Below are positions 576 through 37,690 of a stretch of DNA of 40,644 nt, in pieces (the stretch's first letter is position 1; each line of letters opens with the position of its first letter). A program made the position numbers and the translations under genes. The notes beneath the pieces were generated by a model that had not been told where the DNA came from, did not search any database, and worked only from the letters and a program-made list of their open reading frames with translations. Source of the stretch: a virus; UHGV virus genome UHGV-0357162, one strand, 5' to 3'.

Positions 576-1198
576 TTTTGAATCACCGTTGTTGCATAGG
601 AATAAATAAAAGGGAGTTTTACATATTTCTGGTCAATGGCATCTTTAAGAAAATAGCCTATGCCATCGCCATACTCTGGTATCTGAATAGAAAAAACACT
701 GTCCGATACAGTCACACTCACATCAAAAGTATGCTGCAATGGCGGGTCTATTCCGTTTTTCCCATGAATGAACCGTGCCACACGGCGCTTTAACCAGTCA
801 ATGCAGAAATGCGAACCGTCAGCCTTATAAAAATTCCAAGTTAATATTCGCTTGAAATAATCATCCGGAACATACGATGCCTGCCCCGGAACATAATTCC
901 GCATTGCCGCATAAGGGATTGTATTGTATTCAATGGTATCGTATGCGCCGCGTGCAATAGCCTCCTCGGAAACCTGTAGTAAAGGCCTTTCAACGCCATA
1001 AATCCCGAGTGCAATCCAGTCCAGCAACTGCCCGGTTATTGATTCCGATGTCCAGCATGGCAATGCCAGATTGTTGAGTGAGTCGAGGTATTCCTGAGCA
1101 ATTTCATTGTATGCATCAAAGAACGCAACAACATTCGGATCATCTCTGTACTGCACAAATGGATAAGCAGGGAGAATTTTCTCAGTCAGATATTGCAT
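572..1198 (-). CDS. tail/baseplate protein in gpI position (hypothetical)
   Basis: Track ORF 572..1306; likely start at MQYLTEKIL (1198), overlapping the stop of the J-like gene; position between J-like gene and fibre. Confidence 0.4.
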   Translation of the reverse strand: MQYLTEKILPAYPFVQYRDDPNVVAFFDAYNEIAQEYLDSLNNLALPCWTSESITGQLLDWIALGIYGVERPLLQVSEEAIARGAYDTIEYNTIPYAAMRNYVPGQASYVPDDYFKRILTWNFYKADGSHFCIDWLKRRVARFIHGKNGIDPPLQHTFDVSVTVSDSVFSIQIPEYGDGIGYFLKDAIDQKYVKLPFIYSYATTVIQK

Positions 1199-2408
1199 GC
1201 TTGTTGACCTGAACCTGTGATGCCACCGTTGAAAAATAGGAATAGGTATCGCCATAAACCAGGCTTGTGTCTTTCGCCGGAAGAACAATATGGCCGTTAA
1301 TACCAATGCTCACACTGATTGTTGAGATCAACGTCGCATCAACCAGCAACCTGACGGAACTGGTAAAAATATCCTGGATACGCAGAAGATTTATCGGGTG
1401 TCCGACTTCAATTGAATTGATGTAATCAGCAACGTTTTGCTGCACAGCCATAGCAATACCCGCCGGATCAACATAATCATCAGACACCGTGTTCCAGGTG
1501 ATTAGCACCATGACGTTTTGTGATGACGGGATAACGAACGGCACCTGATAAACGTCCGGCGAAACGGTTATTGAAACCGTGCGTTTTTCCACTGCCGCAC
1601 CGGATGGATTGCTTACATCGTTGGTCAGTTTCGAAATATCCGGTACAGATTTGTAAATCGCATAAGCCACATCATACGGATCACCGCCACCAACAACCGC
1701 AACCCATTTCCCCAGCGACGACTGCCGAAAAGAAATCAGGTTTTCTCGCACACCGTTTACTGATTTGAGCATCGCTTTAAAGCAATCCGGTGTTCCCTGC
1801 ACACCAAACATGCCGGACTCCATGACTTCGGCGCGGTAAGATGCCCACGTTTGCGCCTCCTGACCTGGCATCCCTGCGGTAAGGTTCGTGCATTTTACAG
1901 GCTGGTCTTTTGGTACTGATGTAATGACCTGCGTCACGGTCCCTTCCGGTACAGCCCATGAGCCTGACGTTGTGGCCACACAGTAAACTGGCTCAGTCTG
2001 CCCGCTTTCCGGTATCACAGTATCGCGGGAAACCGCATACTGGTAGTTACCGTCACCAACCACAAATCCTTTAGGGATACCAAACCCCGGCAACGCCTCA
2101 AACACCACGTATACCGCCGTATTTGTACTTAATCCCTTCTGTGCTCCATATATGTTTCCGAGTTGCATCAGTAACGGAATATTCGCGCCGTATGGGCTTA
2201 CAGAGTTAATAAGGTCCACCCGCGCCTGGTCTATTAATGCCAGCGCCCCTACTGCCGTGCTGGCAAGGTCTGTAATAAGTCCTGCCGGAAGGTTGGCTGT
2301 ATATCCAGGTACTTTTTCAGCAACTCTGGTGATAAGATTCGCGAGCAAATCATTGGGTGGCGTAGGCTGCGCACCCGCACTGGTCATAGTAATTGGTATT
2401 TCTGACAT
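1182..2408 (-). CDS. baseplate J-like protein
   Basis: 408 aa; position and composition resemble the baseplate J family; compare in-window Mu gp47-like protein at 37690..38769. Confidence 0.55.
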   Translation of the reverse strand: MSEIPITMTSAGAQPTPPNDLLANLITRVAEKVPGYTANLPAGLITDLASTAVGALALIDQARVDLINSVSPYGANIPLLMQLGNIYGAQKGLSTNTAVYVVFEALPGFGIPKGFVVGDGNYQYAVSRDTVIPESGQTEPVYCVATTSGSWAVPEGTVTQVITSVPKDQPVKCTNLTAGMPGQEAQTWASYRAEVMESGMFGVQGTPDCFKAMLKSVNGVRENLISFRQSSLGKWVAVVGGGDPYDVAYAIYKSVPDISKLTNDVSNPSGAAVEKRTVSITVSPDVYQVPFVIPSSQNVMVLITWNTVSDDYVDPAGIAMAVQQNVADYINSIEVGHPINLLRIQDIFTSSVRLLVDATLISTISVSIGINGHIVLPAKDTSLVYGDTYSYFSTVASQVQVNKHAISD

Positions 2409-2450: not shown

Positions 2451-3197
2451 TTATTTTGCCTGTTTCATTTTTTCCACCCTCTCAAGCATTCTTTTTACAT
2501 TTGATGGAGGATAGTTAAATTCATCGCCGTCTCCAAAAGAAATTTTTATAGGCTTCATTTTCATAACCAACTCTTTCAGAACTGCTTTACCAATTTCAGT
2601 TTTTGGCACTATAAAACCATTTCCATACAAGCATGATTTATAAGTTTTATAATATTCACCATTAATCAAAATTGGTGGATATTCTAATGGGCCATCAATT
2701 TGCACTGAATTATCGCAAAATCCATTACCTTTAGATTTTGAAGCAATAAAAATAGCTATTGTTCCATCATCGCCATACATCAGGAATCTATTTTTACTAA
2801 CACCTTCCAATGGAGGTAATATTATCAGTGCACCATCAATATACCATTCAGCGTAATTCTCTGATTCATTGATTATGTTCTCATTAATTTCATTTAAAGA
2901 TGAATATTCCCTGAATGCATTAGAATACCATTGTCGAACACATGATTCTGTTTTGCACTTCTCTCTTTCATTCCACAAGTCTGAAACAATTTTTCTAAAA
3001 GCTTTCTTATCAGTGCTCTCTAACTTTACTTTTTGATATAAAGAATTTAATTTATCATCAAGTTCAGATAATTCACTGTTGTTGCAAATTAACTTTTCAG
3101 AATATGATTTAGCTTTCGAGCAATCAAAAGATACTGCATTCGCAGTTCCTATTTGTAATAAAAAGGTAAACACTACAAATAATTTTAACTTAGACAT
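2451..3197 (-). CDS. secreted DUF1311/LprI-like protein (moron)
   Basis: Signal peptide MSKLKLFVVFTFLLQIGTANA; Cys-spaced motif FDCSKAKSYSEKLICNNSELSELDDKLNSLYQKV ... WYSNAFREY typical of the DUF1311 (lysozyme inhibitor LprI N-terminal) fold; GGAG RBS; markedly AT-rich relative to neighbours. Confidence 0.55.
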   Translation of the reverse strand: MSKLKLFVVFTFLLQIGTANAVSFDCSKAKSYSEKLICNNSELSELDDKLNSLYQKVKLESTDKKAFRKIVSDLWNEREKCKTESCVRQWYSNAFREYSSLNEINENIINESENYAEWYIDGALIILPPLEGVSKNRFLMYGDDGTIAIFIASKSKGNGFCDNSVQIDGPLEYPPILINGEYYKTYKSCLYGNGFIVPKTEIGKAVLKELVMKMKPIKISFGDGDEFNYPPSNVKRMLERVEKMKQAK

Positions 3198-3534
3198 CCT
3201 TAATCTCCTTATAAAACAGGAGAACAAATTTTACCCATTCTTAATGTCTGTTCAAGTTCATACTTTACAACCGCGCCCAGTTGAGTATGATTGGACGCAT
3301 GAGGCGTCGAAACCTCCCCCAAAAGCTGATTACCCAGCACCCTACAATGTGTTGGTTTTTTTATGCCTTTTTTTTGTGATGGCAATATGTGCGATCACAA
3401 CCCCGATCAATGTCGGGAGGGCGACGAATACAACACCCGAAAGGGGAATAAGTCCGCGGTATCTTTTGGGCCGTTTCGAACCTCCCGGCGCCACTACGTT
3501 AGTGGCAATTCGAAAAAAGCCAAAAGAGGTTACT

Positions 3535-4095
3535 ATGACCACCCAACTCATCACCGTGTTCAACGGAACCATTTCGAACGAAACCATCCTTCTATGCAAC
3601 GCTCGCGATCTGCATGCCTTTCTCGAAGTAGGTAAACGCTTTGCCACTTGGATTACCGAACGAATCAGCGAGTATGAATTCGTAGAAAATCAGGACTTTT
3701 TGATTATTTCCCAAAATCGGGAAAAAATCGGTAGAGGCAGACCAGCCAAAGACTACCATCTCACCCTGGACACCGCCAAAGAGCTGGCTATGGTCGAACG
3801 CAACGAAAAAGGACGCCAGATCCGCCGATACTTCATCGAGTGCGAGAAGAAGCTGCGCGAAGATACCACCAGCACACAATCCCCTCTGAATGTTGACATC
3901 ATCATGCGCGTCAGAAACGGCTCGGTTACCCACATTGAGCACCACAAATCAGGCTCAGTTATAACCACAGAATGGGCAATTCACTTACTACGCAAAAGTG
4001 GATGGATTGTCATGCCACGCGATGAACTTCTTAACACGCCACTGGCCCAATTGATACCCGAAAACTTGCCTCAAACCGGAACCTGCGTCCGGTAA
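3535..4095 (+). CDS. phage anti-repressor, AntA N-terminal domain plus KilA-C-like C-terminal domain
   Basis: Start MTTQLITVFNG with RBS AAAGAGG; motifs ATWITERISEYEFVENQDF (AntA-like) and DYHLTLDTAKELAMVERNEKGRQIRRYFIECEKK (KilAC-like). Opposite strand to the surrounding tail genes; the long track ORF 3079..4095 is an upstream extension. Confidence 0.7.
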   Translation: MTTQLITVFNGTISNETILLCNARDLHAFLEVGKRFATWITERISEYEFVENQDFLIISQNREKIGRGRPAKDYHLTLDTAKELAMVERNEKGRQIRRYFIECEKKLREDTTSTQSPLNVDIIMRVRNGSVTHIEHHKSGSVITTEWAIHLLRKSGWIVMPRDELLNTPLAQLIPENLPQTGTCVR

Positions 4096-8225: not shown

Positions 8226-10267
8226 TGTTTTATTCAGCCAATGAGCTGGCCGGTCTTCCTGGTTTGCCCGGTACAGTTCAGGGGGTGCGCTGGACGCTCA
8301 ATCGGATCACAGAGACGCACCCAGAATGGAAGCGCAAGCGCGAAGGCACCAAAGCATTCGAGTATCACATCGACTGCCTGCCCGCTGAAGCGCAGAAAGT
8401 TTTACGTAAGCGCCTGACTCATCAGGTCCTGGAAGATGCACAACTGCCCGCCGTAGTTGAGCAGAAAGCAGTTAAAAACGTCGCCGTTCGCGATGAACTG
8501 GAGGTGATGGTCAAATGCCCGGAGCTGGCATTACGCGAAGTCCAGTCACTGACCGACAAGCAAAAGGCCATCGCTGATGCGCGGATATTGCTGGCTACTG
8601 AAGTGCATAAGCTGCGCGAGTATGCCGGAATGACCAGGAAGGCCGCTTTAAAGCACATCGTTGATGGTGTGCGCATGGGGGCGTTACCTGACCGCATTAT
8701 CGAAGCAGCGAATACTGCAAATGCACGTCAGGGAAAGCGAACCGGTGTCAGCACCGGCAGCCTGGATAGCTGGTACTCCAGCTGGGTGATGGCGCGCGGT
8801 GATGCCAATCAGTTACTGGCGTTACTGGCTCCCGGTCATCATAAGGGAACACCGTGGGAGCAGGTCTGGTGGTTGAGCGATTTCTTTATGTTCTATCGCT
8901 CATGGAAGCGCCCGACTGTTGAATATGCGTATCGTGAGTTTTCAGCCTGGTGGCATGAAAAACACGCGAATGATGCGGGAATGCTGGCGGCACTGCCTTC
9001 AGTTCACGCAGTAAGACGGGTGTTAAGCAGCGTCCCGGTGATTGTTAAAGAGCGTTTCCGCTCCACCGGTTCAGCCTGGCGTTCGCTCAATCCCTTTGTG
9101 CGGCGCGACTGGACATCATTACCGGTTAATGCGGTATGGGTCGGGGATGGTCACTGTATGAAAATGACCGCGTTTAACCCCCTGACCGGCAATATTTTCC
9201 GGCCAGAAGTGACGCTGGTTATGGATGCGGGGCAACGCTTTGTTGTGGGCTGGTCACTGTCCCTGTCGGAGAACGTGATAGCCGTTGCTGATGCGTTACG
9301 TTACGGCATGGCGCAGCACGGGATACCGCTGATTTATTACTCCGATAACGGGGGCGGTGAAAAAAACCGGGTGCTTGATGCCGATATTACCGGGATTCTG
9401 CCCCGGCTGGGTGTGGAACATCACACGGGGATACCAGGTAACCCGCAGGGGCGCGGGGTGATTGAACGGGCAAACAAAGGAATACCCAAAGACGTGGCTC
9501 TGAGTTTCCAGACGTACTGCGCAAGGGATGCAGACAAGGAAACCGTAATGATGCAGCAACGGATTATGCAGTCAGCCATTAAGGCCACCCACAAAGGGAA
9601 AGAACTGACAAAACGGCAGGTTAAGGCGAGGGATGAAATCCCCACCTTTGAGCAACTGCTGGCAGCCATAGAGCTGGAGGTCAGACGCTATAACAACCGG
9701 CCACACAGCAGCCTACCCCGCAAAGAGGATGGCGAATATTACAGCCCGGCAGCGTATCGCCGGAAACTGATAAAAGAGCAGAATGTTGAAATTGATTTCC
9801 TGTCGCCGGAAGAACTGCATGAAATGTTCAGACCGGAAGTGACGCGCAAAACATTTCGCGGGGAAATTCAGTTATTCAACAATATTTATTACTCATATGA
9901 TCTGGCCGCAGAGCACGGGAATGAAGTCAGGGTCAGTTACGATATTCATGATGCAAACAGCGTCATTGTCCGGCGGGCTGATGGCTCTTATATCTGCGAT
10001 GCCATCTGGAACGGTAACAAGGTTGATGCCTTCGCTAAACCAGTTATCGAACAAAAACTGGAGAAACGCGTCAGGGGCCGCATTGCACGGGCTACGCAGA
10101 AAATCGAAGAGGCTAAACGCGAGCTTACCCCGGCTATTACGCAGAAGCCTGACTTTAATCTGGGATATGGACTGGAGCGCCCGGAGAAAAAGGAAAAAGA
10201 AGAACTTTATTTATTCGCATCTGAACGCGAGCGCAATTTAAAGAAAAACGGCACAAACAACCGTTAA
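8225..10267 (+). CDS. A: Mu A-type DDE transposase
   Basis: 680 aa; N-terminus ANELAGLPGLPGTVQGV resembles the MuA DNA-binding N-terminus; DDE-core-like VWVGDGHCMKM; followed by the MuB-like ATPase. Confidence 0.9.
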   Translation: MFYSANELAGLPGLPGTVQGVRWTLNRITETHPEWKRKREGTKAFEYHIDCLPAEAQKVLRKRLTHQVLEDAQLPAVVEQKAVKNVAVRDELEVMVKCPELALREVQSLTDKQKAIADARILLATEVHKLREYAGMTRKAALKHIVDGVRMGALPDRIIEAANTANARQGKRTGVSTGSLDSWYSSWVMARGDANQLLALLAPGHHKGTPWEQVWWLSDFFMFYRSWKRPTVEYAYREFSAWWHEKHANDAGMLAALPSVHAVRRVLSSVPVIVKERFRSTGSAWRSLNPFVRRDWTSLPVNAVWVGDGHCMKMTAFNPLTGNIFRPEVTLVMDAGQRFVVGWSLSLSENVIAVADALRYGMAQHGIPLIYYSDNGGGEKNRVLDADITGILPRLGVEHHTGIPGNPQGRGVIERANKGIPKDVALSFQTYCARDADKETVMMQQRIMQSAIKATHKGKELTKRQVKARDEIPTFEQLLAAIELEVRRYNNRPHSSLPRKEDGEYYSPAAYRRKLIKEQNVEIDFLSPEELHEMFRPEVTRKTFRGEIQLFNNIYYSYDLAAEHGNEVRVSYDIHDANSVIVRRADGSYICDAIWNGNKVDAFAKPVIEQKLEKRVRGRIARATQKIEEAKRELTPAITQKPDFNLGYGLERPEKKEKEELYLFASERERNLKKNGTNNR

Positions 10268-16453: not shown

Positions 16454-16477
16454 CCTTCGCAAACGCGGAGGTTTTTT
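16454..16477 (+). terminator. rho-independent terminator after the secreted-protein moron
   Basis: CCTTCGC-aaac-GCGGAGG stem (one G-U pair) followed by TTTTTT. Confidence 0.5.
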
Positions 16478-16483
16478 ATGGTC

Positions 16484-16511
16484 TGTACAGGCGATCATGT
16501 ATGGCTATAAT
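16484..16511 (+). promoter_or_regulatory. candidate sigma70 promoter for the mor-like gene
   Basis: TGTACA, 16-nt spacer, TATAAT, about 30 nt upstream of the ATG at 16541. Confidence 0.3.
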
Positions 16512-16540: not shown

Positions 16541-17008
16541 ATGCAGACCTTCAGTGAAACAGATCTTCGCGATGCGCAGGCACTGCTGCCCGATTCCGTG
16601 CAGCAACTGATTAGCGTGATTGGCTTCCCCGCCCTGACCCGGTTAATCCGTTCTTTTGGTGGCGTGACGTTAAGCGGTAAAACCGGCGCACACGCCGAAC
16701 GCACCGGCGGCGTCCATGCCCTGTTACATGATGTTCTGACCGAAGACGAAATCAACAAACTGATCCGCTTTCTTGGCGGTGCTCCGTTTTACATTCCCCG
16801 TTGCGATCATGCGTTACGTGCCCTGCGTAACACCCGTTTTATGGCTGATTTACAGCAGCATGTAAAAGACGGATGCTCACACCGGCAGGCGCTGGCACTG
16901 CTCTGTCCCCGTTACGGCATTTCAGACCGGTACGCATGGCAGCTGATACACCGACGACAAAAACAGACTTCGCTGAAAAGCCCCACCCAGGTGGGGCTTT
17001 TTGATTAA
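16541..17008 (+). CDS. mor: Mor/C-family transcriptional activator
   Basis: 155 aa; position after the GemA-like gene; C-terminal HTH-like region (RQALALLCPRYGISDRYAWQLIHRRQ) as in the Mu Mor/C family. Confidence 0.6.
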   Translation: MQTFSETDLRDAQALLPDSVQQLISVIGFPALTRLIRSFGGVTLSGKTGAHAERTGGVHALLHDVLTEDEINKLIRFLGGAPFYIPRCDHALRALRNTRFMADLQQHVKDGCSHRQALALLCPRYGISDRYAWQLIHRRQKQTSLKSPTQVGLFD

Positions 17009-17034: not shown

Positions 17035-17313
17035 ATGACCAACTATATGGCACTTGGCGAGTATACGGCCTACTCAGAGCAGGCCCGGGATGCTGCCGGA
17101 CGTCGCTTTGCTTATATGAAAAATTTGGCCAGTCAGTTAAACCGAATGGCCGAACAACCGGATATGGTTGTTCAGGAAGAAGCGTTGCAGTGTGCCATTG
17201 CTGACATCATCGCCAGCGAAAACGAGATGCGCGCAGCGATGGAAAAGGCGAACGCCTCTGCTCCGCTTTGTAATAAACCTCTTATTACGCCGGATTCTCT
17301 TTCCCGCTTCTGA
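17035..17313 (+). CDS. hypothetical protein
   Basis: ATG at 17035 (MTNYMALGEY) preceded by AAGGAG; the track ORF starts at 17008. Confidence 0.4.
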   Translation: MTNYMALGEYTAYSEQARDAAGRRFAYMKNLASQLNRMAEQPDMVVQEEALQCAIADIIASENEMRAAMEKANASAPLCNKPLITPDSLSRF

Positions 17314-17335
17314 TTTATCACCCCGCCGCCGCGGG

Positions 17336-17360
17336 GTGCTGAACTCCCCCAGCAGTACCC
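17336..17360 (+). promoter_or_regulatory. conserved late-promoter box, copy 1 (GTGCTGAACTCCCCCAGCAGTACCC), upstream of the lysis cassette
   Basis: One of three copies of GTGCTGAAC(A/T)CCC(T/C)CA found upstream of late operons. Confidence 0.45.
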
Positions 17361-17495
17361 ACCACACCAGACCGTTTACCCTGTCCACTCAGACCACAAG
17401 GTACCTTAAGGGATAGCGCCCTGCAAAAGGCTTTTGTGCCTTTGACAGGGTGTTATTTACGGGCCGTCAGTGGCTCAGATTTACAGGAGAAACTC

Positions 17496-17888
17496 ATGTC
17501 TGAACCCTTATCAGGCGGCGGAGCTGTGGCAGTCACCATCGGTGGTGCCAGTGTGTTTGGCCTTCTCACCAATACCGATTTCGGGGTCGTGGTGGGCGCG
17601 TTTGCCGGGGCGCTTTTTGTTGTCACGCAGCAGAAAGAAATCCCGGTATGGCGAATGGCCATCCACCTGCTCGTCGCGTTTGTGGTTGGCGTTCTGGGGG
17701 CTGGTGTGGCTGCGTCACTGATGCAGTGGCTGACCCACTACAACGACAAACCGCTCGATGCATTGTGTGCGGTCGGTGTCTCTGCTTTATCCATCAAGAT
17801 ACTGACTTTTCTTTATCAACAGGAAATTTCATCGCTGTTCGGCCTGTTTTCCAGACTGCGCGGCGGAGGGGGTGGAAATGGAAAGTAG
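17496..17888 (+). CDS. membrane protein, holin-like (lysis cassette)
   Basis: ATG after AGGAGA RBS; about 130 aa with three hydrophobic segments and a Gly-rich charged C-terminus; directly upstream of the endolysin. Confidence 0.45.
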   Translation: MSEPLSGGGAVAVTIGGASVFGLLTNTDFGVVVGAFAGALFVVTQQKEIPVWRMAIHLLVAFVVGVLGAGVAASLMQWLTHYNDKPLDALCAVGVSALSIKILTFLYQQEISSLFGLFSRLRGGGGGNGK

Positions 17889-25184: not shown

Positions 25185-25339
25185 ATGACCAGAAACGCGC
25201 TGTAATCGTCTGTGACAACATAAACGCCTCACGGATGAGGCATTACAGCACTGCACCCCGTAAATGCCGTCAGAATCATTTTTAAAAGGGTTTTAAAAAC
25301 GGTTTTATTTCCACTTTTATCCTTTCCCGTTATGGCAGG

Positions 25340-25368
25340 GTGCTGAACACCCTCAACAGTACCCCGTG
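25340..25368 (+). promoter_or_regulatory. conserved late-promoter box, copy 2 (GTGCTGAACACCCTCAACAGTACCCC), upstream of gene I
   Basis: Shares GTGCTGAAC(A/T)CCC(T/C)CA with copies at 17336 and 37287; the GTG of the box is the artefactual track start. Confidence 0.45.
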
Positions 25369-25384
25369 TTCCCCTTTCGTCATC

Positions 25385-26509
25385 ATGCCGCGTATGAAGA
25401 TGAACATTGCGGCATTAAGCCTCGAAATTACTAAAGCAACCCACAGCGAAATCCAGCTGTTTCCGGCGGGCGAGTTCAGTGCGGTGGATGGTCGCCCACA
25501 TACCGATGAAGTCGAAAGTGGTAAATGGGTGCTGACTGCCGGACTGGCCGCGCAGCTTGTCGCACAGGTGGCAGCCCGTACCACGCCTTTTGTCATTGAT
25601 TACGAACATCAGACGCTGCGCGCCGTAAACAACGGCAAGCCCGCCCCGGCGGCGGGCTGGTTCAGCCAGGTGGAATGGCGAGAAGGTGCGGGCCTGTATG
25701 CCACCGGTGTGGAGTGGACGGATAACGCGGCGGCCATGATTGCCGCCGGTGAGTACAAGTTTATTTCCCCTGTTTTTGCCTACAACAAGCGCGGCGAAGT
25801 GCTGGAGCTGTTACATGCTGCGCTGACCAATACCCCGGCGCTGGACGGTATGGACGCGGTCATGCTGGCTGCGGCCAGTCGTCTGGCGAGTCTGTCAACT
25901 GAAACGGAGACCACAACGGTGGATGAAGAACTGTTAAACAATTTGCTTTCCGACCTGCGCTGGATGCTTAACCTCCCGGTTACCTCAACGGCGGAAGATA
26001 TCAAAAACGAGCTGCAAAAGGTCGTTGACATGATTTCGAACGGTCAGGGAACGGCGGCGGCATCCGTCAGCCTGCTGGCCCTGCTGAATCAGAAAGACGA
26101 GCAAATCGCCAGTCTGTCAGCAAATGCCTATGACCCGACGAAGCATATCCCTCTGACGGCATATGAAGAACTTCAGGGACGTTATGCCGTACTGGCGCAA
26201 CAGTCCGGTGAGGCCGAAGCCGGGGCACTGATTCAGGCGGCGCTGTCTGACGGGCGACTGCTTCCGGCCCAGGAAGACTGGGCAAAAGATTACGCCAGCC
26301 GCGATATCAACGGCTTTAAGTCCTGGCTGGATAACGCACCGAAACTTGTTGCGCTCAGTCAGACCCAGACCGGCGGCAAACCACCCAAAACGCCGTCACC
26401 GGCCCCGGCGCAGATTAAAACCGGCGATGACGTTGATGTCGATATCGCCATTTGTTCAATGATGGGCGTTGATCCAGAGGATATCGCCCGTTACGCAGGA
26501 GACAAGTAA
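25385..26509 (+). CDS. Mu I-like head protease / scaffold protein
   Basis: Start taken at the first ATG after the late box (MPRMKMNIAALS; alternatives 25394 and 25400); position before the major head protein. Confidence 0.65.
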   Translation: MPRMKMNIAALSLEITKATHSEIQLFPAGEFSAVDGRPHTDEVESGKWVLTAGLAAQLVAQVAARTTPFVIDYEHQTLRAVNNGKPAPAAGWFSQVEWREGAGLYATGVEWTDNAAAMIAAGEYKFISPVFAYNKRGEVLELLHAALTNTPALDGMDAVMLAAASRLASLSTETETTTVDEELLNNLLSDLRWMLNLPVTSTAEDIKNELQKVVDMISNGQGTAAASVSLLALLNQKDEQIASLSANAYDPTKHIPLTAYEELQGRYAVLAQQSGEAEAGALIQAALSDGRLLPAQEDWAKDYASRDINGFKSWLDNAPKLVALSQTQTGGKPPKTPSPAPAQIKTGDDVDVDIAICSMMGVDPEDIARYAGDK

Positions 26510-35440: not shown

Positions 35441-36635
35441 CGACGACAAAATCAGCCTGGTCATTGCCGGAAGGTCGCATTCTGACTGGAGCAGTTATCG
35501 TATTGACAGCGATTTCCTGAAAGCCGCCGACGGGTGGCAGCTTCAGCTGGGACTGCCTGAAAAGGTGTTCCCGGCGGATATCGTCCGGGGTGCGCCGGTC
35601 CGTTTGCAGGTGGGAGACGAGACGGTCCTCAGTGGTCGCGTGGACAGCGTGCGCCGCAGTGTATCCCGTCAGAGCTGCACGCTGACCCTGTCCGGGCGTG
35701 ATGATGCCGCCATTCTGGTGGACTGTGCCGCGCCGGTGTTCAGCGCCAATCAGCTGACGCTGGACGAGGTCATCGACAGGATTGTCAGACCGCTGGGGAT
35801 ACAGCGCATCCGTATTCAGGCGTCCGGTGTGTCACGTAATGACAAGGTCGTTATAGAGCCGGGGATGCGTGCGTGGGATGCACTGGCCAAAGCTGCCGCC
35901 GGTCGCGGCTTATGGCCGTGGTTTGAGCCTGACGGGACGCTGGTTGTGGGTGGCCCTGACTACACCACCACGCCGGTGGATACGCTGATTCTGAAGCTGG
36001 ACGGCACCGGGAACAACGTGATGGAGCTGGACGATACCCGGTCCATTAACGGCTGCTTCTCCGAACTTACGGTACTGGCTCAAAGCCACGCCCGCCGCGC
36101 AGACAGCAAAAAACAACTGGTCGTGGTGCCACTGGATATCTGGAACGAGGACGGCAGCGTGCGCACGTTATCCGGGCGGGACGGCGGTAATACTGACAAT
36201 GGCCAGACAGGTATTCATAACATGAAAGCCGTGGCCACCGACCCCACCGTGGATTATTACCGCCCGCAGATAATTACCCAGGGCGACACCAGTAACATGG
36301 AGCAGGTGAACTGGCGCGCCAAAAAAATGATGAGTGATGCCCGCCTGTCGGGGCTGGATATCGTCGCACTGGTTGCAGGTCATCGCACGGCAGACGGTGT
36401 TCTGTGGCAGCCCGGCCAGCGAGTACGGATTGTCAGCGAACCCCACGGCATCGATGCCATCTTTTTTCTGATGGGCCGCGAGTTCAGCGGAGGCCGGAGC
36501 GGGCAGACAACCCGGCTCCGCTTTAAGGAGGATGGTGTGTGGATACCTGATGCCTTCCCGCGCGAGAAGAAACGCCATCACCGCAGGGGCAAAAAGAAAA
36601 AAGAAGTCGCCATTGTTAAGGTCTGGGAGAAATGA
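35424..36635 (+). CDS. baseplate hub protein P-like (Mu gp44)
   Basis: 403 aa; position before the spike gene; basic C-terminal tail. Confidence 0.7.
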   Translation: MPMQNNDDKISLVIAGRSHSDWSSYRIDSDFLKAADGWQLQLGLPEKVFPADIVRGAPVRLQVGDETVLSGRVDSVRRSVSRQSCTLTLSGRDDAAILVDCAAPVFSANQLTLDEVIDRIVRPLGIQRIRIQASGVSRNDKVVIEPGMRAWDALAKAAAGRGLWPWFEPDGTLVVGGPDYTTTPVDTLILKLDGTGNNVMELDDTRSINGCFSELTVLAQSHARRADSKKQLVVVPLDIWNEDGSVRTLSGRDGGNTDNGQTGIHNMKAVATDPTVDYYRPQIITQGDTSNMEQVNWRAKKMMSDARLSGLDIVALVAGHRTADGVLWQPGQRVRIVSEPHGIDAIFFLMGREFSGGRSGQTTRLRFKEDGVWIPDAFPREKKRHHRRGKKKKEVAIVKVWEK

Positions 36636-37286
36636 TGTGGGACAAGGTTAATCAGCGCATACAGCAGGCACTGGCCGCCGTTCGCCAGGCATTCAGGGTG
36701 GTGACCGGTACGGTAGACAGTTCTACCAAAGTACAGCTACTTCAGCTGAACGGTCTGGCAGGCGAACAACTGGACGGTGCGGAGTATTTCCAGCATTACG
36801 GCCTCACCACATCCCCGCCGCCCGGCTCAATGGGTATTGCCGTTCCGCTGAACGGTAATACCTCCCATACCGTCGTCGTGGCCACAGAGCACGGCGCATA
36901 TCGCCTGACGGAACTGAAACCCGGCGAGGTGGCCCTGTATACCGACGAAGGCGCGAAAATCGTGCTGAAGCGCGGGCGGATTGTTGAAACCGAATGTGAC
37001 GTTTACCGGGTGAAATGCAAACGCTATGAGGTTGAGGCAGAGGAAAGCGCCGCATTCACGACACCGTTACTGACGGCCAGCGATAAGCTGACGGTGGAAG
37101 GTAAAATCACCGGCAACGGTGGCATGGCCATCCGTGGGGGGCAAGAAATACGCCGCCACCTTTGAAGGCAACATCAACCATGTGGGTGGTGTGATTACCT
37201 CCGTTGACGTCACCATTAATGGCGTTAAAATCGGAACGCACAAACACCCGACCCCACACGGCATGTCTGACACGCCGGTTAATTAA
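36632..37286 (+). pseudogene. baseplate spike gp45-like gene interrupted by a +1 frameshift in a G6 tract (about 37136..37141); track ORF ends at 37165, C-terminal apex is encoded in the next frame to 37286
   Basis: Removing one G gives ...AIRGGKKYAATFEGNINHVGGVITSVDVTINGVKIGTHKHPTPHGMSDTPVN, a His-rich spike-tip-like C-terminus ending just before the late box at 37287. Confidence 0.55.
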
Positions 37287-37315
37287 GTGCTGAACACCCT
37301 CACCTGATTCTGACC
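37287..37315 (+). promoter_or_regulatory. conserved late-promoter box, copy 3 (GTGCTGAACACCCTCACCTGATTCTGACC), upstream of gp46
   Basis: Identical 16-bp core to copy 2; lies 53 bp upstream of the gp46 ATG. Confidence 0.45.
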
Positions 37316-37339
37316 TGTCCATGCTGCCAGACTGGCGGC

Positions 37340-37690
37340 ATGGACCAGACGATTTCACCTGCAACCGGCGACTACGAACGCCGCCGGATTTATACACTTC
37401 ATAACGCGGTTTATCTGCGACTGGCGACGCCGCTTGGCAGTTACTGGGCGGATGCGTCGCTGGGGTCACGCCTGCACGAACTGAAGCGGGAAAAAGACGT
37501 TTCCCGTGTTCACAGGCTGGCGGCGCAGTATGCCAGCCAGGCTCTTCAGCCCCTGCTTGATGACGGGCGGGCAAAATCCATTACCGTTGACACGAAAGCG
37601 GGTCAGCGCGGCTGGCTGTTGCTGTTAATCACCGTCACGGATAACGCGGGCACACCGCAGACGTTTGAACACCCTGTGAGGATTATGTAA
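37340..37690 (+). CDS. Mu gp46-like baseplate protein
   Basis: 116 aa; position between spike and J-like genes. Confidence 0.55.
   Translation: MDQTISPATGDYERRRIYTLHNAVYLRLATPLGSYWADASLGSRLHELKREKDVSRVHRLAAQYASQALQPLLDDGRAKSITVDTKAGQRGWLLLLITVTDNAGTPQTFEHPVRIM

What the first reader, a model, noticed from the sequence alone, without database searches (positions are those of the whole stretch)
17336..17360. Conserved GTGCTGAAC box repeated upstream of three late operons
The 16-bp core GTGCTGAAC(A/T)CCC(T/C)CA occurs at 17336 (before the lysis cassette), 25340 (45 bp before the gene I start) and 37287 (53 bp before gp46), each in an intergenic gap at the head of a late gene block. Copies 1 and 2 share a longer CA(G/A)CAGTACCC extension. 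This is the signature expected for a shared activator-dependent late promoter, analogous to C-dependent Plys, PI and PP in Mu, here presumably read by the single Mor/C-family protein at 16541..17008. The site positions differ from Mu, since the third sits before gp46 rather than before the hub gene.
Basis: seen in the sequence. Interest (0 to 1): 0.6.

Follow-up and report, generated by a model that had tools for sequence, protein, structure and literature searches.

The report
Late promoters of a Mu-like prophage
The repeated GTGCTGAAC box is very probably the binding site of this E. coli Mu-like prophage's single Mor/C-type activator, marking its three late promoters; this is an expected kind of element, but two of the promoters appear to start transcription exactly at the start codon of the first gene.

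Summary
The 16-mer occurs three times, at 17336, 25340 and 37287, against 0.09 expected by chance. A weight matrix scores these sites at 21-25 bits and nothing else in the window above 12.

Relatives from about 12 enterobacterial lineages, whose activators are 44-93% identical, show the real element. It is a 16-bp imperfect dyad, GCTGA-N6(C-rich)-TCAGC. An invariant-length 23-nt spacer of variable sequence follows, then a -10-like hexamer with A2 and T6 invariant in 29 of 29 distinct sites. This is the published Mor/C promoter layout (16-bp element centred at -43.5, no -35), and I measured the same 16+23+6 spacing at Mu Pmom.

The window encodes only one Mor/C-family protein. It is closer to MuC than to Mor and has a C-terminal clamp-binding-like motif, QVGLF.

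Three points are new:
- The half-sites differ from Mu's TTAT/ATAA.
- The cascade appears to have no separate middle-operon activator.
- At the protease (I) and gp46 promoters the ATG lies 6-7 nt after the -10 in every lineage. Both genes lack a Shine-Dalgarno sequence, so leaderless mRNAs are predicted.

A conserved hairpin also buries the gp46 AUG in read-through RNA. No transcription start has been mapped.

The parts
16541..17008 (+). Gene for the only Mor/C-family activator in the window (155 aa). It is more C-like than Mor-like and ends in TQVGLFD, a clamp-binding-like motif.
   Evidence: phrog_836 late transcriptional activator, E 1e-42. Pfam PF08765 at 29.1 bits, cut-off 24.9. It is the only hit of the family HMMs in the six-frame translation. 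A family profile hits MuC structures 9l0x/9vw8 at E 9e-4 and Mor 1rr7 at only E 0.78, and aligns QVGLF with MuC QPDLF.
17338..17353 (+). Activator box of the lysis/packaging-operon promoter (Plys equivalent): GCTGA-ACTCCC-CCAGC.
   Evidence: Exact motif. Weight-matrix score 21-22 bits. The same element occupies the same position in 11 distinct lineages.
17377..17382 (+). Predicted -10 hexamer TACCCT of Plys, 23 nt after the box. The predicted start is about 17387-17391, giving a leader of about 107 nt to the holin ATG at 17496.
   Evidence: The 23-nt spacing and the nAnnnT pattern are invariant in 29/29 sites. The leader folds into a long hairpin (17411-17458), dG -41.5 kcal/mol, z -3.9.
25342..25357 (+). 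Activator box of the head-operon promoter (PI equivalent): GCTGA-ACACCC-TCAAC.
   Evidence: 25 bits. Present upstream of the gene I homologue in all ten relatives with a close activator that were retrieved by protein homology, not by the box.
25381..25396 (+). Predicted -10 hexamer CATCAT (25381-25386), a 7-nt GC-rich discriminator, then the ATG of protease/scaffold gene I (25394). The predicted start is at or next to the A of the ATG.
   Evidence: The hexamer-to-ATG distance is 6 or 7 nt in 12 lineages. Gene I has the weakest anti-SD pairing of 34 prophage genes, +1.2 kcal/mol.
37289..37304 (+). Activator box of the baseplate/tail-fibre promoter (P46): GCTGA-ACACCC-TCACC. It begins 2 nt after the gp45 stop codon.
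   Evidence: 23.5 bits. The same 53-nt gp45-gp46 gap with the box is found in the closer relatives L038-L045; L046 has the same box-to-ATG spacing within a 90-nt annotated gap.
37328..37342 (+). Predicted -10 hexamer CAGACT (37328-37333), 6 nt (ggcggc), then the gp46 ATG (37340). The predicted start is the A of the ATG.
   Evidence: The same spacing occurs in 7 lineages. gp46 has the second weakest anti-SD pairing, -1.5 kcal/mol.
37319..37343 (+). Conserved hairpin CCATGCTGCC-AGACT-GGCGGCATGG in + strand RNA. Its 3' arm contains the gp46 AUG and its loop is the -10 hexamer.
   Evidence: dG about -24 to -26 kcal/mol, z -4.7. 98.6% of cells are paired in 7 lineages. Three pairs show compensatory changes, including AUG to GUG with U to C. 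The G-U pairs are valid only on the + strand. 2 of 500 shuffles reach the observed score.
16454..16511 (+). Terminator-like hairpin with T-run (16454-16477), then a sigma-70-like promoter TGTACA-16-TATAAT (16484-16511) with a conserved GATC, upstream of the activator gene. This is the likely entry point of the cascade.
   Evidence: Promoter scan, sequence, and the same layout in L018, Salmonella L049 and Edwardsiella L022. Its function is inferred only.

Best explanation
The three boxes are the activator-binding sites of the prophage's three late promoters.

Proposed mechanism:
1. A dimer of the phage's single Mor/C-family protein (16541-17008) binds the 16-bp imperfect dyad GCTGA-N6(C-rich)-TCAGC, centred at about -43.5. 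The dyad takes the place of a -35 element.
2. The bound dimer lets sigma-70 RNA polymerase use a weak -10 hexamer located exactly 23 nt downstream: TACCCT, CATCAT and CAGACT.
3. As in Mu, activity may be coupled to replication through the protein's C-terminal clamp-binding-like motif, QVGLF.

The promoters head the lysis/packaging block (start near 17389), the head block (start at or next to 25394) and the baseplate/tail-fibre block (start at 37340). In the last two, the start codon follows the -10 by 6-7 nt. The mRNAs are therefore predicted to be leaderless.

Shown here: the motif, its statistics, its geometry, its conservation, and the family membership of the protein. Inferred: binding, activation, the transcription starts and leaderless translation.
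For: 1. Three exact copies against 0.09 expected. There is a clear score gap, 21-25 bits against less than 12 bits for anything else.
2. 29 distinct sites from E. coli, Salmonella, Trabulsiella, Intestinirhabdus, Buttiauxella, Yersinia, Xenorhabdus, Photorhabdus, Morganella and Citrobacter-type contigs share invariant CTGAAC and CA positions. All have a spacer of exactly 23 nt with almost no sequence information. A2 and T6 of the hexamer are present in 29/29, although the hexamer was not used to find the sites.
3. The loci were fetched by homology to the activator, protease and gp46 proteins, not by the box.
4. The architecture equals published Mor/C sites. Mor binds two 5-bp inverted repeats in a 16-bp element with a G/C-rich hexanucleotide spacer centred at -43.5 (PMC4390567). 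C binds a 16-bp imperfect dyad at -43.5, with a -10 but no -35 (PMC2582627). Mu Pmom measured here is ATTATGCCCCAATAAC + 23 nt + TAAGAT.
5. Box variants are uniform within a genome and change with the activator, which points to a phage-encoded reader. Examples: Klebsiella phage ACTGAAG... at three sites with 41% activator identity, Serratia GACGAAC...TCATC at two sites with 37%, and Mu TTAT...ATAA.
6. There is only one Mor/C-family ORF. Its profile hits MuC structures, including the C-terminal clamp motif (PMC12867686).
7. The sigma-70 scan finds no complete -35/-10 promoter at any of the three sites.
8. Supporting leaderless mRNAs: the ATG lies 6-7 nt after the hexamer in all lineages at both PI and P46. 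Genes I and gp46 have the two weakest anti-SD pairings of 34 genes.
Against: - There are no experimental data. No transcription start, footprint or reporter exists for this prophage family in the papers searched.
- The -10 hexamers are weak (3-4 of 6), so the assignment rests on conserved spacing and on A2/T6.
- The right half-site is degenerate and the left one extends to GCTGAAC, so binding may be asymmetric rather than a simple symmetric dimer contact.
- The box was partly used to select sites, so its own conservation is somewhat circular. The spacing and the -10 are not.
- Against leaderless translation: in Klebsiella phage ST405-OXA48phi1.1 the gp46 start is GTG. To my knowledge this codon is poor for leaderless initiation in E. 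coli.
- Also against it: the hairpin at gp46 shows that transcripts reading through from upstream exist and matter.
Confidence: 0.85

Rival explanations
1. The box is a site for a host CRP/FNR-type regulator. Its core TGA-N6-TCA has the 5+6+5 layout of the CRP consensus TGTGA-N6-TCACA, so the promoters would be class-II-like host-activated promoters.
For: The consensus contains TGA-N6-TCA with 16-bp geometry overlapping the -35 region. The CRP consensus itself is from my own knowledge and was not tested with a matrix here.
Against: - The invariant C at box position 2 replaces a G that CRP contacts, and only about 3 of 5 bases match per half-site.
- The C-rich spacer and the AAC extension are conserved, which CRP does not require.
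- The centre is at -43.5 rather than -41.5.
- Box variants differ between phages living in hosts that, to my knowledge, all have near-identical CRP, and they track the phage activator.
- The motif is absent from the host flanks at 21 bits or more.
Confidence: 0.03
2. The box acts at the RNA level, as a small hairpin serving as a processing, termination or translational signal in read-through transcripts, rather than as a DNA site.
For: In the E. coli lineage the box is embedded in a longer complementarity, GGGGTG-CTGAA-CACCCC. The dyad itself could form a 5-bp stem.
Against: - The GGGTG/CACCC complementarity is absent in other genera.
- The left half-site is invariant while the right half varies (TCAGC, TCAAC, TCACC, CCAGC, TCATC, TCAAA) with no compensating change on the left. 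This is the opposite of what a stem predicts.
- RNAalifold finds no consensus structure over the PI region.
- Rfam has no match at any of the three sites.
- A fixed distance to a -10-like hexamer has no RNA-level explanation.
Confidence: 0.03
3. The boxes are late-promoter activator sites, but they are read by another phage protein and not by the Mor/C-family protein. Candidates are the conserved 92-aa ORF at 17035-17313, between the activator gene and Plys, or an early-region regulator.
For: ORF 17035-17313 (phrog_7152, function unknown) is conserved next to the activator gene. No binding data exist.
Against: - The 5+6+5 dyad at -43.5 with a 23-nt gap to the -10 is the specific signature of Mor and C sites (PMC4390567, PMC2582627).
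- ORF 17035-17313 has no Pfam domain and no detectable DNA-binding motif.
- In Xenorhabdus, Photorhabdus and Morganella relatives a fourth box sits in front of the Mor/C-like gene itself, as expected for autoregulation.
Confidence: 0.07
4. The repeats are conserved module-boundary sequences left by recombination between mosaic phage genomes and have no regulatory role.
For: All three lie at junctions between functional gene blocks.
Against: Only 16 bp plus two hexamer positions are conserved, while the adjacent DNA has diverged to near-random with its length held constant. The same arrangement is kept across genera whose protein identity is only 45-75%. Recombination scars would not keep a fixed distance to a -10 hexamer and to the start codon.
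Confidence: 0.02

Closest known systems
Bacteriophage Mu C-dependent late promoters (Plys, PI, PP, Pmom)
   Same: - A 16-bp imperfect dyad centred at -43.5 replaces the -35, with a recognisable -10 and a C-rich stretch just downstream of the dyad.
- The activator belongs to the Mor/C family and has a C-terminal clamp-binding motif.
- The promoters head the lysis, head and tail/baseplate blocks.
- The 16+23+6 spacing is identical to Mu Pmom as measured here (PMC2582627, PMC12867686).
   Different: - The half-sites are GCTGA/TCAGC instead of TTAT/ATAA.
- The activator shows only about 27% local identity to C or Mor.
- There are three promoters, not four, and no mom. No fourth box is found up to the prophage end in the near-identical STEC313 copy.
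- The third promoter is before gp46, not before hub gene P.
- The ATGs of I and gp46 abut the promoter. In Mu, gene I keeps about 50 nt and an SD-like GCAGGA between the conserved promoter block and its ATG, and gp45/gp46 overlap with no gap.
Bacteriophage Mu middle promoter Pm (Mor-dependent)
   Same: Two 5-bp inverted repeats are separated by a G/C-rich hexanucleotide in a 16-bp element centred at -43.5 (PMC4390567). The activator gene sits directly after gemA, the position Mor has in Mu.
   Different: No second family member and no separate activator-bearing middle operon were found. The single protein appears to act directly on late promoters. It is closer to C by profile, which suggests a two-step rather than a three-step cascade. 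In E. coli and Salmonella its gene has its own sigma-70-like promoter behind a terminator.
Leaderless mRNAs of E. coli phages and transposons (for example lambda cI from PRM, Tn1721 tetR). This comparison is from my own knowledge and was not tested here.
   Same: Transcription is predicted to start at the A of the AUG. There is no Shine-Dalgarno sequence, and the start codon is AUG in the window.
   Different: Here the leaderless genes would be the first cistrons of long late structural operons driven by an activator-dependent promoter. At gp46 the same AUG is buried in a conserved hairpin in read-through RNA. No start has been mapped.
P2/186/P4 Ogr/B/Delta-dependent late promoters. This comparison is from my own knowledge.
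   Same: A small phage activator recognises a dyad upstream of several late operons that lack a -35 element.
   Different: The activator family is unrelated (zinc-finger), the dyad is TGT-N12-ACA, and it is centred near -55. This is a functional analogue only.

Membership tests
Mor/C-dependent promoters (Mu Pm and late promoters) | A 16-bp element made of two 5-bp inverted repeats separated by a G/C-rich hexanucleotide | tested here: met
   GCTGA-(A)CCCCC-TCAGC. It is perfect in several relatives (for example L021, L027, L029) and matches 4 of 5 right-half bases in the three window copies. Definition from PMC4390567.
Mor/C-dependent promoters (Mu Pm and late promoters) | Element centred at -43.5, that is 23 nt between the element and the -10 hexamer | tested here: inconclusive
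   The 23-nt gap to an nAnnnT hexamer is found in 29/29 distinct sites, the same as Mu Pmom. One Klebsiella phage Plys site has 24 nt. The -43.5 value assumes the hexamer is the -10, because no start is mapped.
Mor/C-dependent promoters (Mu Pm and late promoters) | A recognisable -10 but no -35 hexamer | tested here: met
   The sigma-70 scan finds no two-hexamer promoter at the three sites. A2 and T6 of the hexamer are invariant.
Mor/C-dependent promoters (Mu Pm and late promoters) | A Mor/C-family activator encoded by the same phage | tested here: met
   PF08765 at 29.1 bits against a 24.9-bit cut-off, phrog_836, and a profile hit to MuC structures at E 9e-4.
Mor/C-dependent promoters (Mu Pm and late promoters) | The activator binds the element, and transcription depends on it | not testable with these tools
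   This needs gel shift or footprinting and reporter or in vitro transcription assays.
MuC regulon specifically | Consensus TTAT-N5-6-ATAA (PMC12867686) | tested here: not met
   The half-sites are GCTGA/TCAGC. The weight matrix finds nothing above 13 bits in Mu. The specificity is therefore different, and these are not MuC targets.
Leaderless mRNA | The transcript 5' end coincides with the A of the start codon | not testable with these tools
   This is predicted from the ATG lying 6-7 nt after the conserved hexamer at PI and P46 in all lineages. It needs 5' end mapping.
Leaderless mRNA | No Shine-Dalgarno sequence; AUG start | tested here: met
   Anti-SD pairing is +1.2 kcal/mol for I and -1.5 for gp46, against -2.1 to -12.5 for the other 32 genes. 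The start is ATG in the window. One relative has GTG at gp46.
CRP class II site | TGTGA-N6-TCACA centred at -41.5 | tested here: not met
   Box position 2 is an invariant C where CRP needs a G. The centre is two base pairs off. The box varies with the phage and not with the host. The CRP consensus is from my own knowledge.

The most novel reading that the evidence does not exclude
In this widespread group of enterobacterial Mu-like prophages, two of the three late operons (head, starting with protease/scaffold I, and baseplate, starting with gp46) are made as leaderless mRNAs from activator-dependent promoters. At gp46, a conserved hairpin hides the same AUG in transcripts that read through from upstream. 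Translation of the first baseplate gene would then be gated by which promoter made the RNA. A related layout, a -10-like hexamer 7 nt before the gp46 ATG flanked by an inverted repeat, is also seen in Burkholderia prophages that have a different box.
Probability: 0.5. Interest if true: 0.6.

Novelty: new member of a known kind. Interest (0 to 1): 0.45.

Why it matters
- It gives a precise, testable operator sequence and promoter map for a common but unstudied family of Mu-like prophages. The family is present in about 190 of 5,426 complete E. coli genomes, including STEC strains and EPEC E2348/69, and in many other Enterobacterales.
- It shows that the Mor/C promoter geometry (16-bp dyad, 23 nt, -10) is conserved far beyond Mu while the recognised bases change. 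This is useful for the new Mor/C-RNA polymerase structures and for annotating late promoters in prophages.
- If the predicted leaderless starts and the AUG-hiding hairpin are real, they would be an unusual way to set the expression of the first gene of late structural operons.
- A specialist would not be surprised by the basic finding that a Mu-like phage has activator-dependent late promoters.

Tried and rejected
- A megablast of the region against the phage collection found nothing, so there is no close sequenced phage.
- The first genome-contig scan with the single activator protein found no relatives. Repeating it with an alignment of distant homologues worked.
- I first read the box as the E. 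coli-specific dyad GGGTG-CTGAA-CACCC. I rejected this because other genera lack it, and GCTGA-N6-TCAGC is the conserved dyad.
- I looked for sigma-54-like or ECF-like readings of the box by eye. The spacings do not fit and the relevant bases are not conserved.
- I looked for a conserved RNA structure around the PI start. The window folds at -16.7 kcal/mol (z -2.3), but RNAalifold finds no consensus across 11 lineages, so I dropped it.
- I looked for a fourth box (mom or tail-fibre promoter). There is none in the window and none up to the right end of the near-identical STEC313 prophage.
- I looked for a second Mor/C gene and found none.
- Margolin et al. 1989, which maps the Mu late starts, is not held in the library. 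Mu's own start positions could therefore not be read and were inferred from sequence.
- Literature searches for leaderless or late promoters in Mu-like prophages returned nothing relevant.

Full report
**1. The observation**

The pattern GTGCTGAACWCCCYCA occurs exactly three times, at 17336, 25340 and 37287, all on the + strand. Allowing two mismatches adds no further match. Dinucleotide shuffles give 0.09 matches on average, and none of 100 shuffles reached three.

All three copies are intergenic:
- 17314-17495, before two holins and an M15 endolysin.
- 25185-25393, between the G-like tail-completion gene and the protease/scaffold gene I.
- 37287-37339, between gp45 and gp46.

The window is a Mu-like prophage of E. 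coli. It is 98% identical to a prophage of STEC313 and about 93% identical to one in EPEC E2348/69. Related DNA is found in 191 of 5,426 complete genomes. No close phage record exists.

**2. What the element is**

I fetched relatives by protein homology, not by the box. The queries were the activator, gp46 and protease I.

In prophages of Salmonella, Trabulsiella, Intestinirhabdus, Buttiauxella, Yersinia, Xenorhabdus, Photorhabdus, Morganella and Citrobacter-type contigs, the activator is 44-93% identical to the window's. The same three gaps in these prophages carry a 16-bp element, GCTGA-N6-TCAGC.

Across 29 distinct sites:
- Box positions 2-7 (CTGAAC) and 13-14 (CA) are invariant.
- The hexanucleotide between the half-sites is C-rich.
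- The right half-site is degenerate (TCAGC, TCAAC, TCACC, CCAGC and others).
- A spacer of exactly 23 nt follows in every site, with almost no sequence information.
- A hexamer then follows in which A2 and T6 are present in 29/29. Examples are TACCCT, TATACT, TACACT, CACAAT, CATCAT, TATGCT, TACGCT and CAGACT.

The hexamer and the spacing were not used to find the sites, so they are independent evidence.

A weight matrix built from 16 box variants, including the window's own three, gives 21-25 bits for the three window sites and less than 12 bits for everything else in the window. In about 945 kb of fetched loci, including host flanks, no hit at 21 bits or more lies outside the promoter classes. 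Shuffled windows reach a mean maximum of 13.5 bits and an overall maximum of 20.0.

**3. Comparison with Mu**

Published work describes these features:
- C binds a 16-bp imperfect dyad centred at -43.5.
- The four Mu late promoters have -10 hexamers but no -35 (PMC2582627).
- The MuC consensus is TTAT-N5-6-ATAA (PMC12867686).

In the Mu genome I measured Pmom as ATTATGCCCCAATAAC, then 23 nt, then TAAGAT. This is the same 16+23+6 geometry as in the window. If the hexamer is placed at -12 to -7, the window's dyads are centred at -43.5.

The sigma-70 consensus scan finds no complete promoter at the three sites. This is expected for promoters that depend on an activator.

**4.

Six-frame HMM searches with the family profile, alone and combined with Mu Mor and C, find only one family member in the window, at 16541-17008. 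It passes the Pfam Mor threshold.

It is only distantly related to Mu C and Mor, with local identities around 27% or short stretches. A profile of the subfamily hits solved MuC structures (9l0x, 9vw8) at E 9e-4, but Mor (1rr7) only at E 0.78. That alignment places the subfamily's conserved C-terminal Q-x-G-L-F (QVGLF in the window; Q150, L153 and F154 are nearly invariant) on MuC's C-terminal clamp-binding motif QPDLF. The MuC motif is needed for clamp-stimulated late transcription (PMC12867686).

Box variants are uniform within each genome and change with the activator:
- E. coli: GTGCTGAAC(A/T)CCC.
- Salmonella: GCTGAACCC(C/G)GTCAAC.
- Morganella H1r: GCTGAACCCCGCCAAC, twice.
- Klebsiella phage ST405-OXA48phi1.1: ACTGAAGCCC-TCAA, three times (41% activator identity).
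- Serratia: GACGAACCCCATCATC, twice (37% activator identity).

This pattern argues for a phage-encoded reader and against a host factor such as CRP, whose TGA-N6-TCA core the box superficially resembles. In Xenorhabdus, Photorhabdus and Morganella a fourth box with the same 23-nt geometry lies upstream of the activator gene itself, as expected for autoregulation.

**5. Rivals**

- An RNA hairpin reading fails. The left half-site never changes while the right one varies without compensation. The longer GGGTG/CACCC complementarity is specific to the E. coli lineage. RNAalifold finds no consensus structure and Rfam has no match.
- Recombination scars would not keep a fixed-length, variable-sequence spacer to a hexamer.
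The 92-aa ORF at 17035-17313 has no recognisable domain.

**6. Differences from Mu**

a. The recognition sequence is different.

b. There is a single activator and no second family member, which suggests a two-step cascade. In E. coli, Salmonella and Edwardsiella the activator gene sits behind a terminator-like hairpin and a sigma-70-like promoter, TGTACA-16-TATAAT, with a conserved GATC. In other relatives it is fused to the gemA operon or is autoregulated.

c. There are three promoters, not four. No fourth box is found in the window or up to the right end of the STEC313 copy.

d. The third promoter precedes gp46, not the hub gene. The gp45-gp46 gap is 53 nt in the closer relatives, whereas in Mu gp45 and gp46 overlap.

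e. At PI and P46 the ATG lies 6 or 7 nt after the hexamer in every lineage examined. This includes the Serratia and Klebsiella variants. The intervening bases vary (gccgcgt, gtggac, gcgggc, ggcctc, ggcggc, ggcagc and others). A sigma-70 start normally lies about 7 nt after the -10, so the predicted first transcribed base is the A of the ATG, or the base before it. Genes I and gp46 also have the weakest anti-Shine-Dalgarno pairing of 34 prophage genes, at +1.2 and -1.5 kcal/mol against -2.1 to -12.5 for the rest.

I therefore predict leaderless mRNAs for these two operons, with confidence of about 0.6. A caveat is that the Klebsiella phage gp46 starts with GTG. In a Pasteurellaceae relative (Lonepinella L032) and in Mu, gene I has room for a leader and an SD-like sequence. 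The arrangement therefore seems specific to this enterobacterial group.

**7. The hairpin at gp46**

The sequence CCATGCTGCC-AGACT-GGCGGCATGG (37319-37343) folds at about -24 to -26 kcal/mol, z -4.7. Its loop is the -10 hexamer and its 3' arm contains the gp46 AUG.

In seven lineages 98.6% of cells pair. Three pairs show compensatory double changes, including AUG to GUG matched by U to C. The G-U pairs are valid only in + strand RNA. Only 2 of 500 shuffles reach the observed covariation.

A transcript starting at the AUG lacks the 5' arm, whereas read-through RNA from gp45 would have its AUG sequestered. I infer that gp46 translation is tied to use of P46. This is an inference only.

**8. Verdict**

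The element is a new member, with new specificity, of the known Mor/C-dependent promoter class. That is ordinary for a Mu-like phage, but here it is defined precisely by comparative data. The predicted leaderless starts and the AUG-hiding hairpin are the parts worth an experiment.

Noticed in passing
window 36632-37286 (G-run about 37131-37136): The gp45 (baseplate assembly protein V) gene is split by one extra G in a G-run, compared with the intact 217-aa gene in STEC313. This is either a frameshifted pseudogene or a homopolymer sequencing error.
   Followed up: partly
window 16454-16511: A terminator-like hairpin with a T-run is followed by TGTACA-16-TATAAT, with a conserved GATC (16493-16496) in the spacer, upstream of the activator gene. 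The same layout occurs in Salmonella, Edwardsiella and L018. The GATC raises the possibility of control by Dam methylation or replication.
   Followed up: partly
L024 9911, L025 9901, L028 9907, L030 9907: Xenorhabdus, Photorhabdus and Morganella relatives carry a fourth box, ACTGAACCCCTTCAAC + 23 nt + AATACT, about 90 nt upstream of the activator gene. This suggests positive autoregulation, which is absent in the window.
   Followed up: partly
window 37319-37343: A conserved 10-bp-stem hairpin encloses the P46 -10 in its loop and the gp46 AUG in its 3' arm. It is supported by covariation in 7 lineages.
   Followed up: yes
window 17389-17495: The predicted 107-nt leader of the lysis operon folds into a long hairpin (17411-17458), dG -41.5 kcal/mol, z -3.9. 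It is followed by a U-rich stretch and could be an attenuator or a lysis-timing element.
   Followed up: no
window 16997-17008 (C-terminus of the activator): The activator ends in TQVGLFD. The Q-x-x-L-F is nearly invariant in the subfamily and aligns with MuC's C-terminal clamp-binding motif QPDLF (PMC12867686).
   Followed up: partly
window 3412-3497 (+): There is an Rfam sRNA-Xcc1 match (72.5 bits, gathering score 53) in the left flank, inside or next to an AntA-domain ORF (3079-4095). ORF 1182-2408 (-) is Baseplate_J-like. A second phage-derived region therefore lies left of the Mu-like prophage.
   Followed up: no
window 25185-25340: The G-I gap contains a block, tcatttttaaaagggttttaaaaacgg, that is conserved in all relatives. 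It resembles sequence in Mu's G-I gap, where the strong gyrase site is annotated, so it may be the equivalent gyrase site next to PI.
   Followed up: partly
L047/L048 about 9939-10000 (Burkholderia prophages): In a distant clade with a different upstream box, gp46 is again preceded by a -10-like hexamer (GACAAT), 7 nt, then the ATG. The hexamer is flanked by a 7-bp inverted repeat, GCGCACG...CGTGCGC. The promoter-abutting start may therefore be older than the GCTGA box.
   Followed up: no
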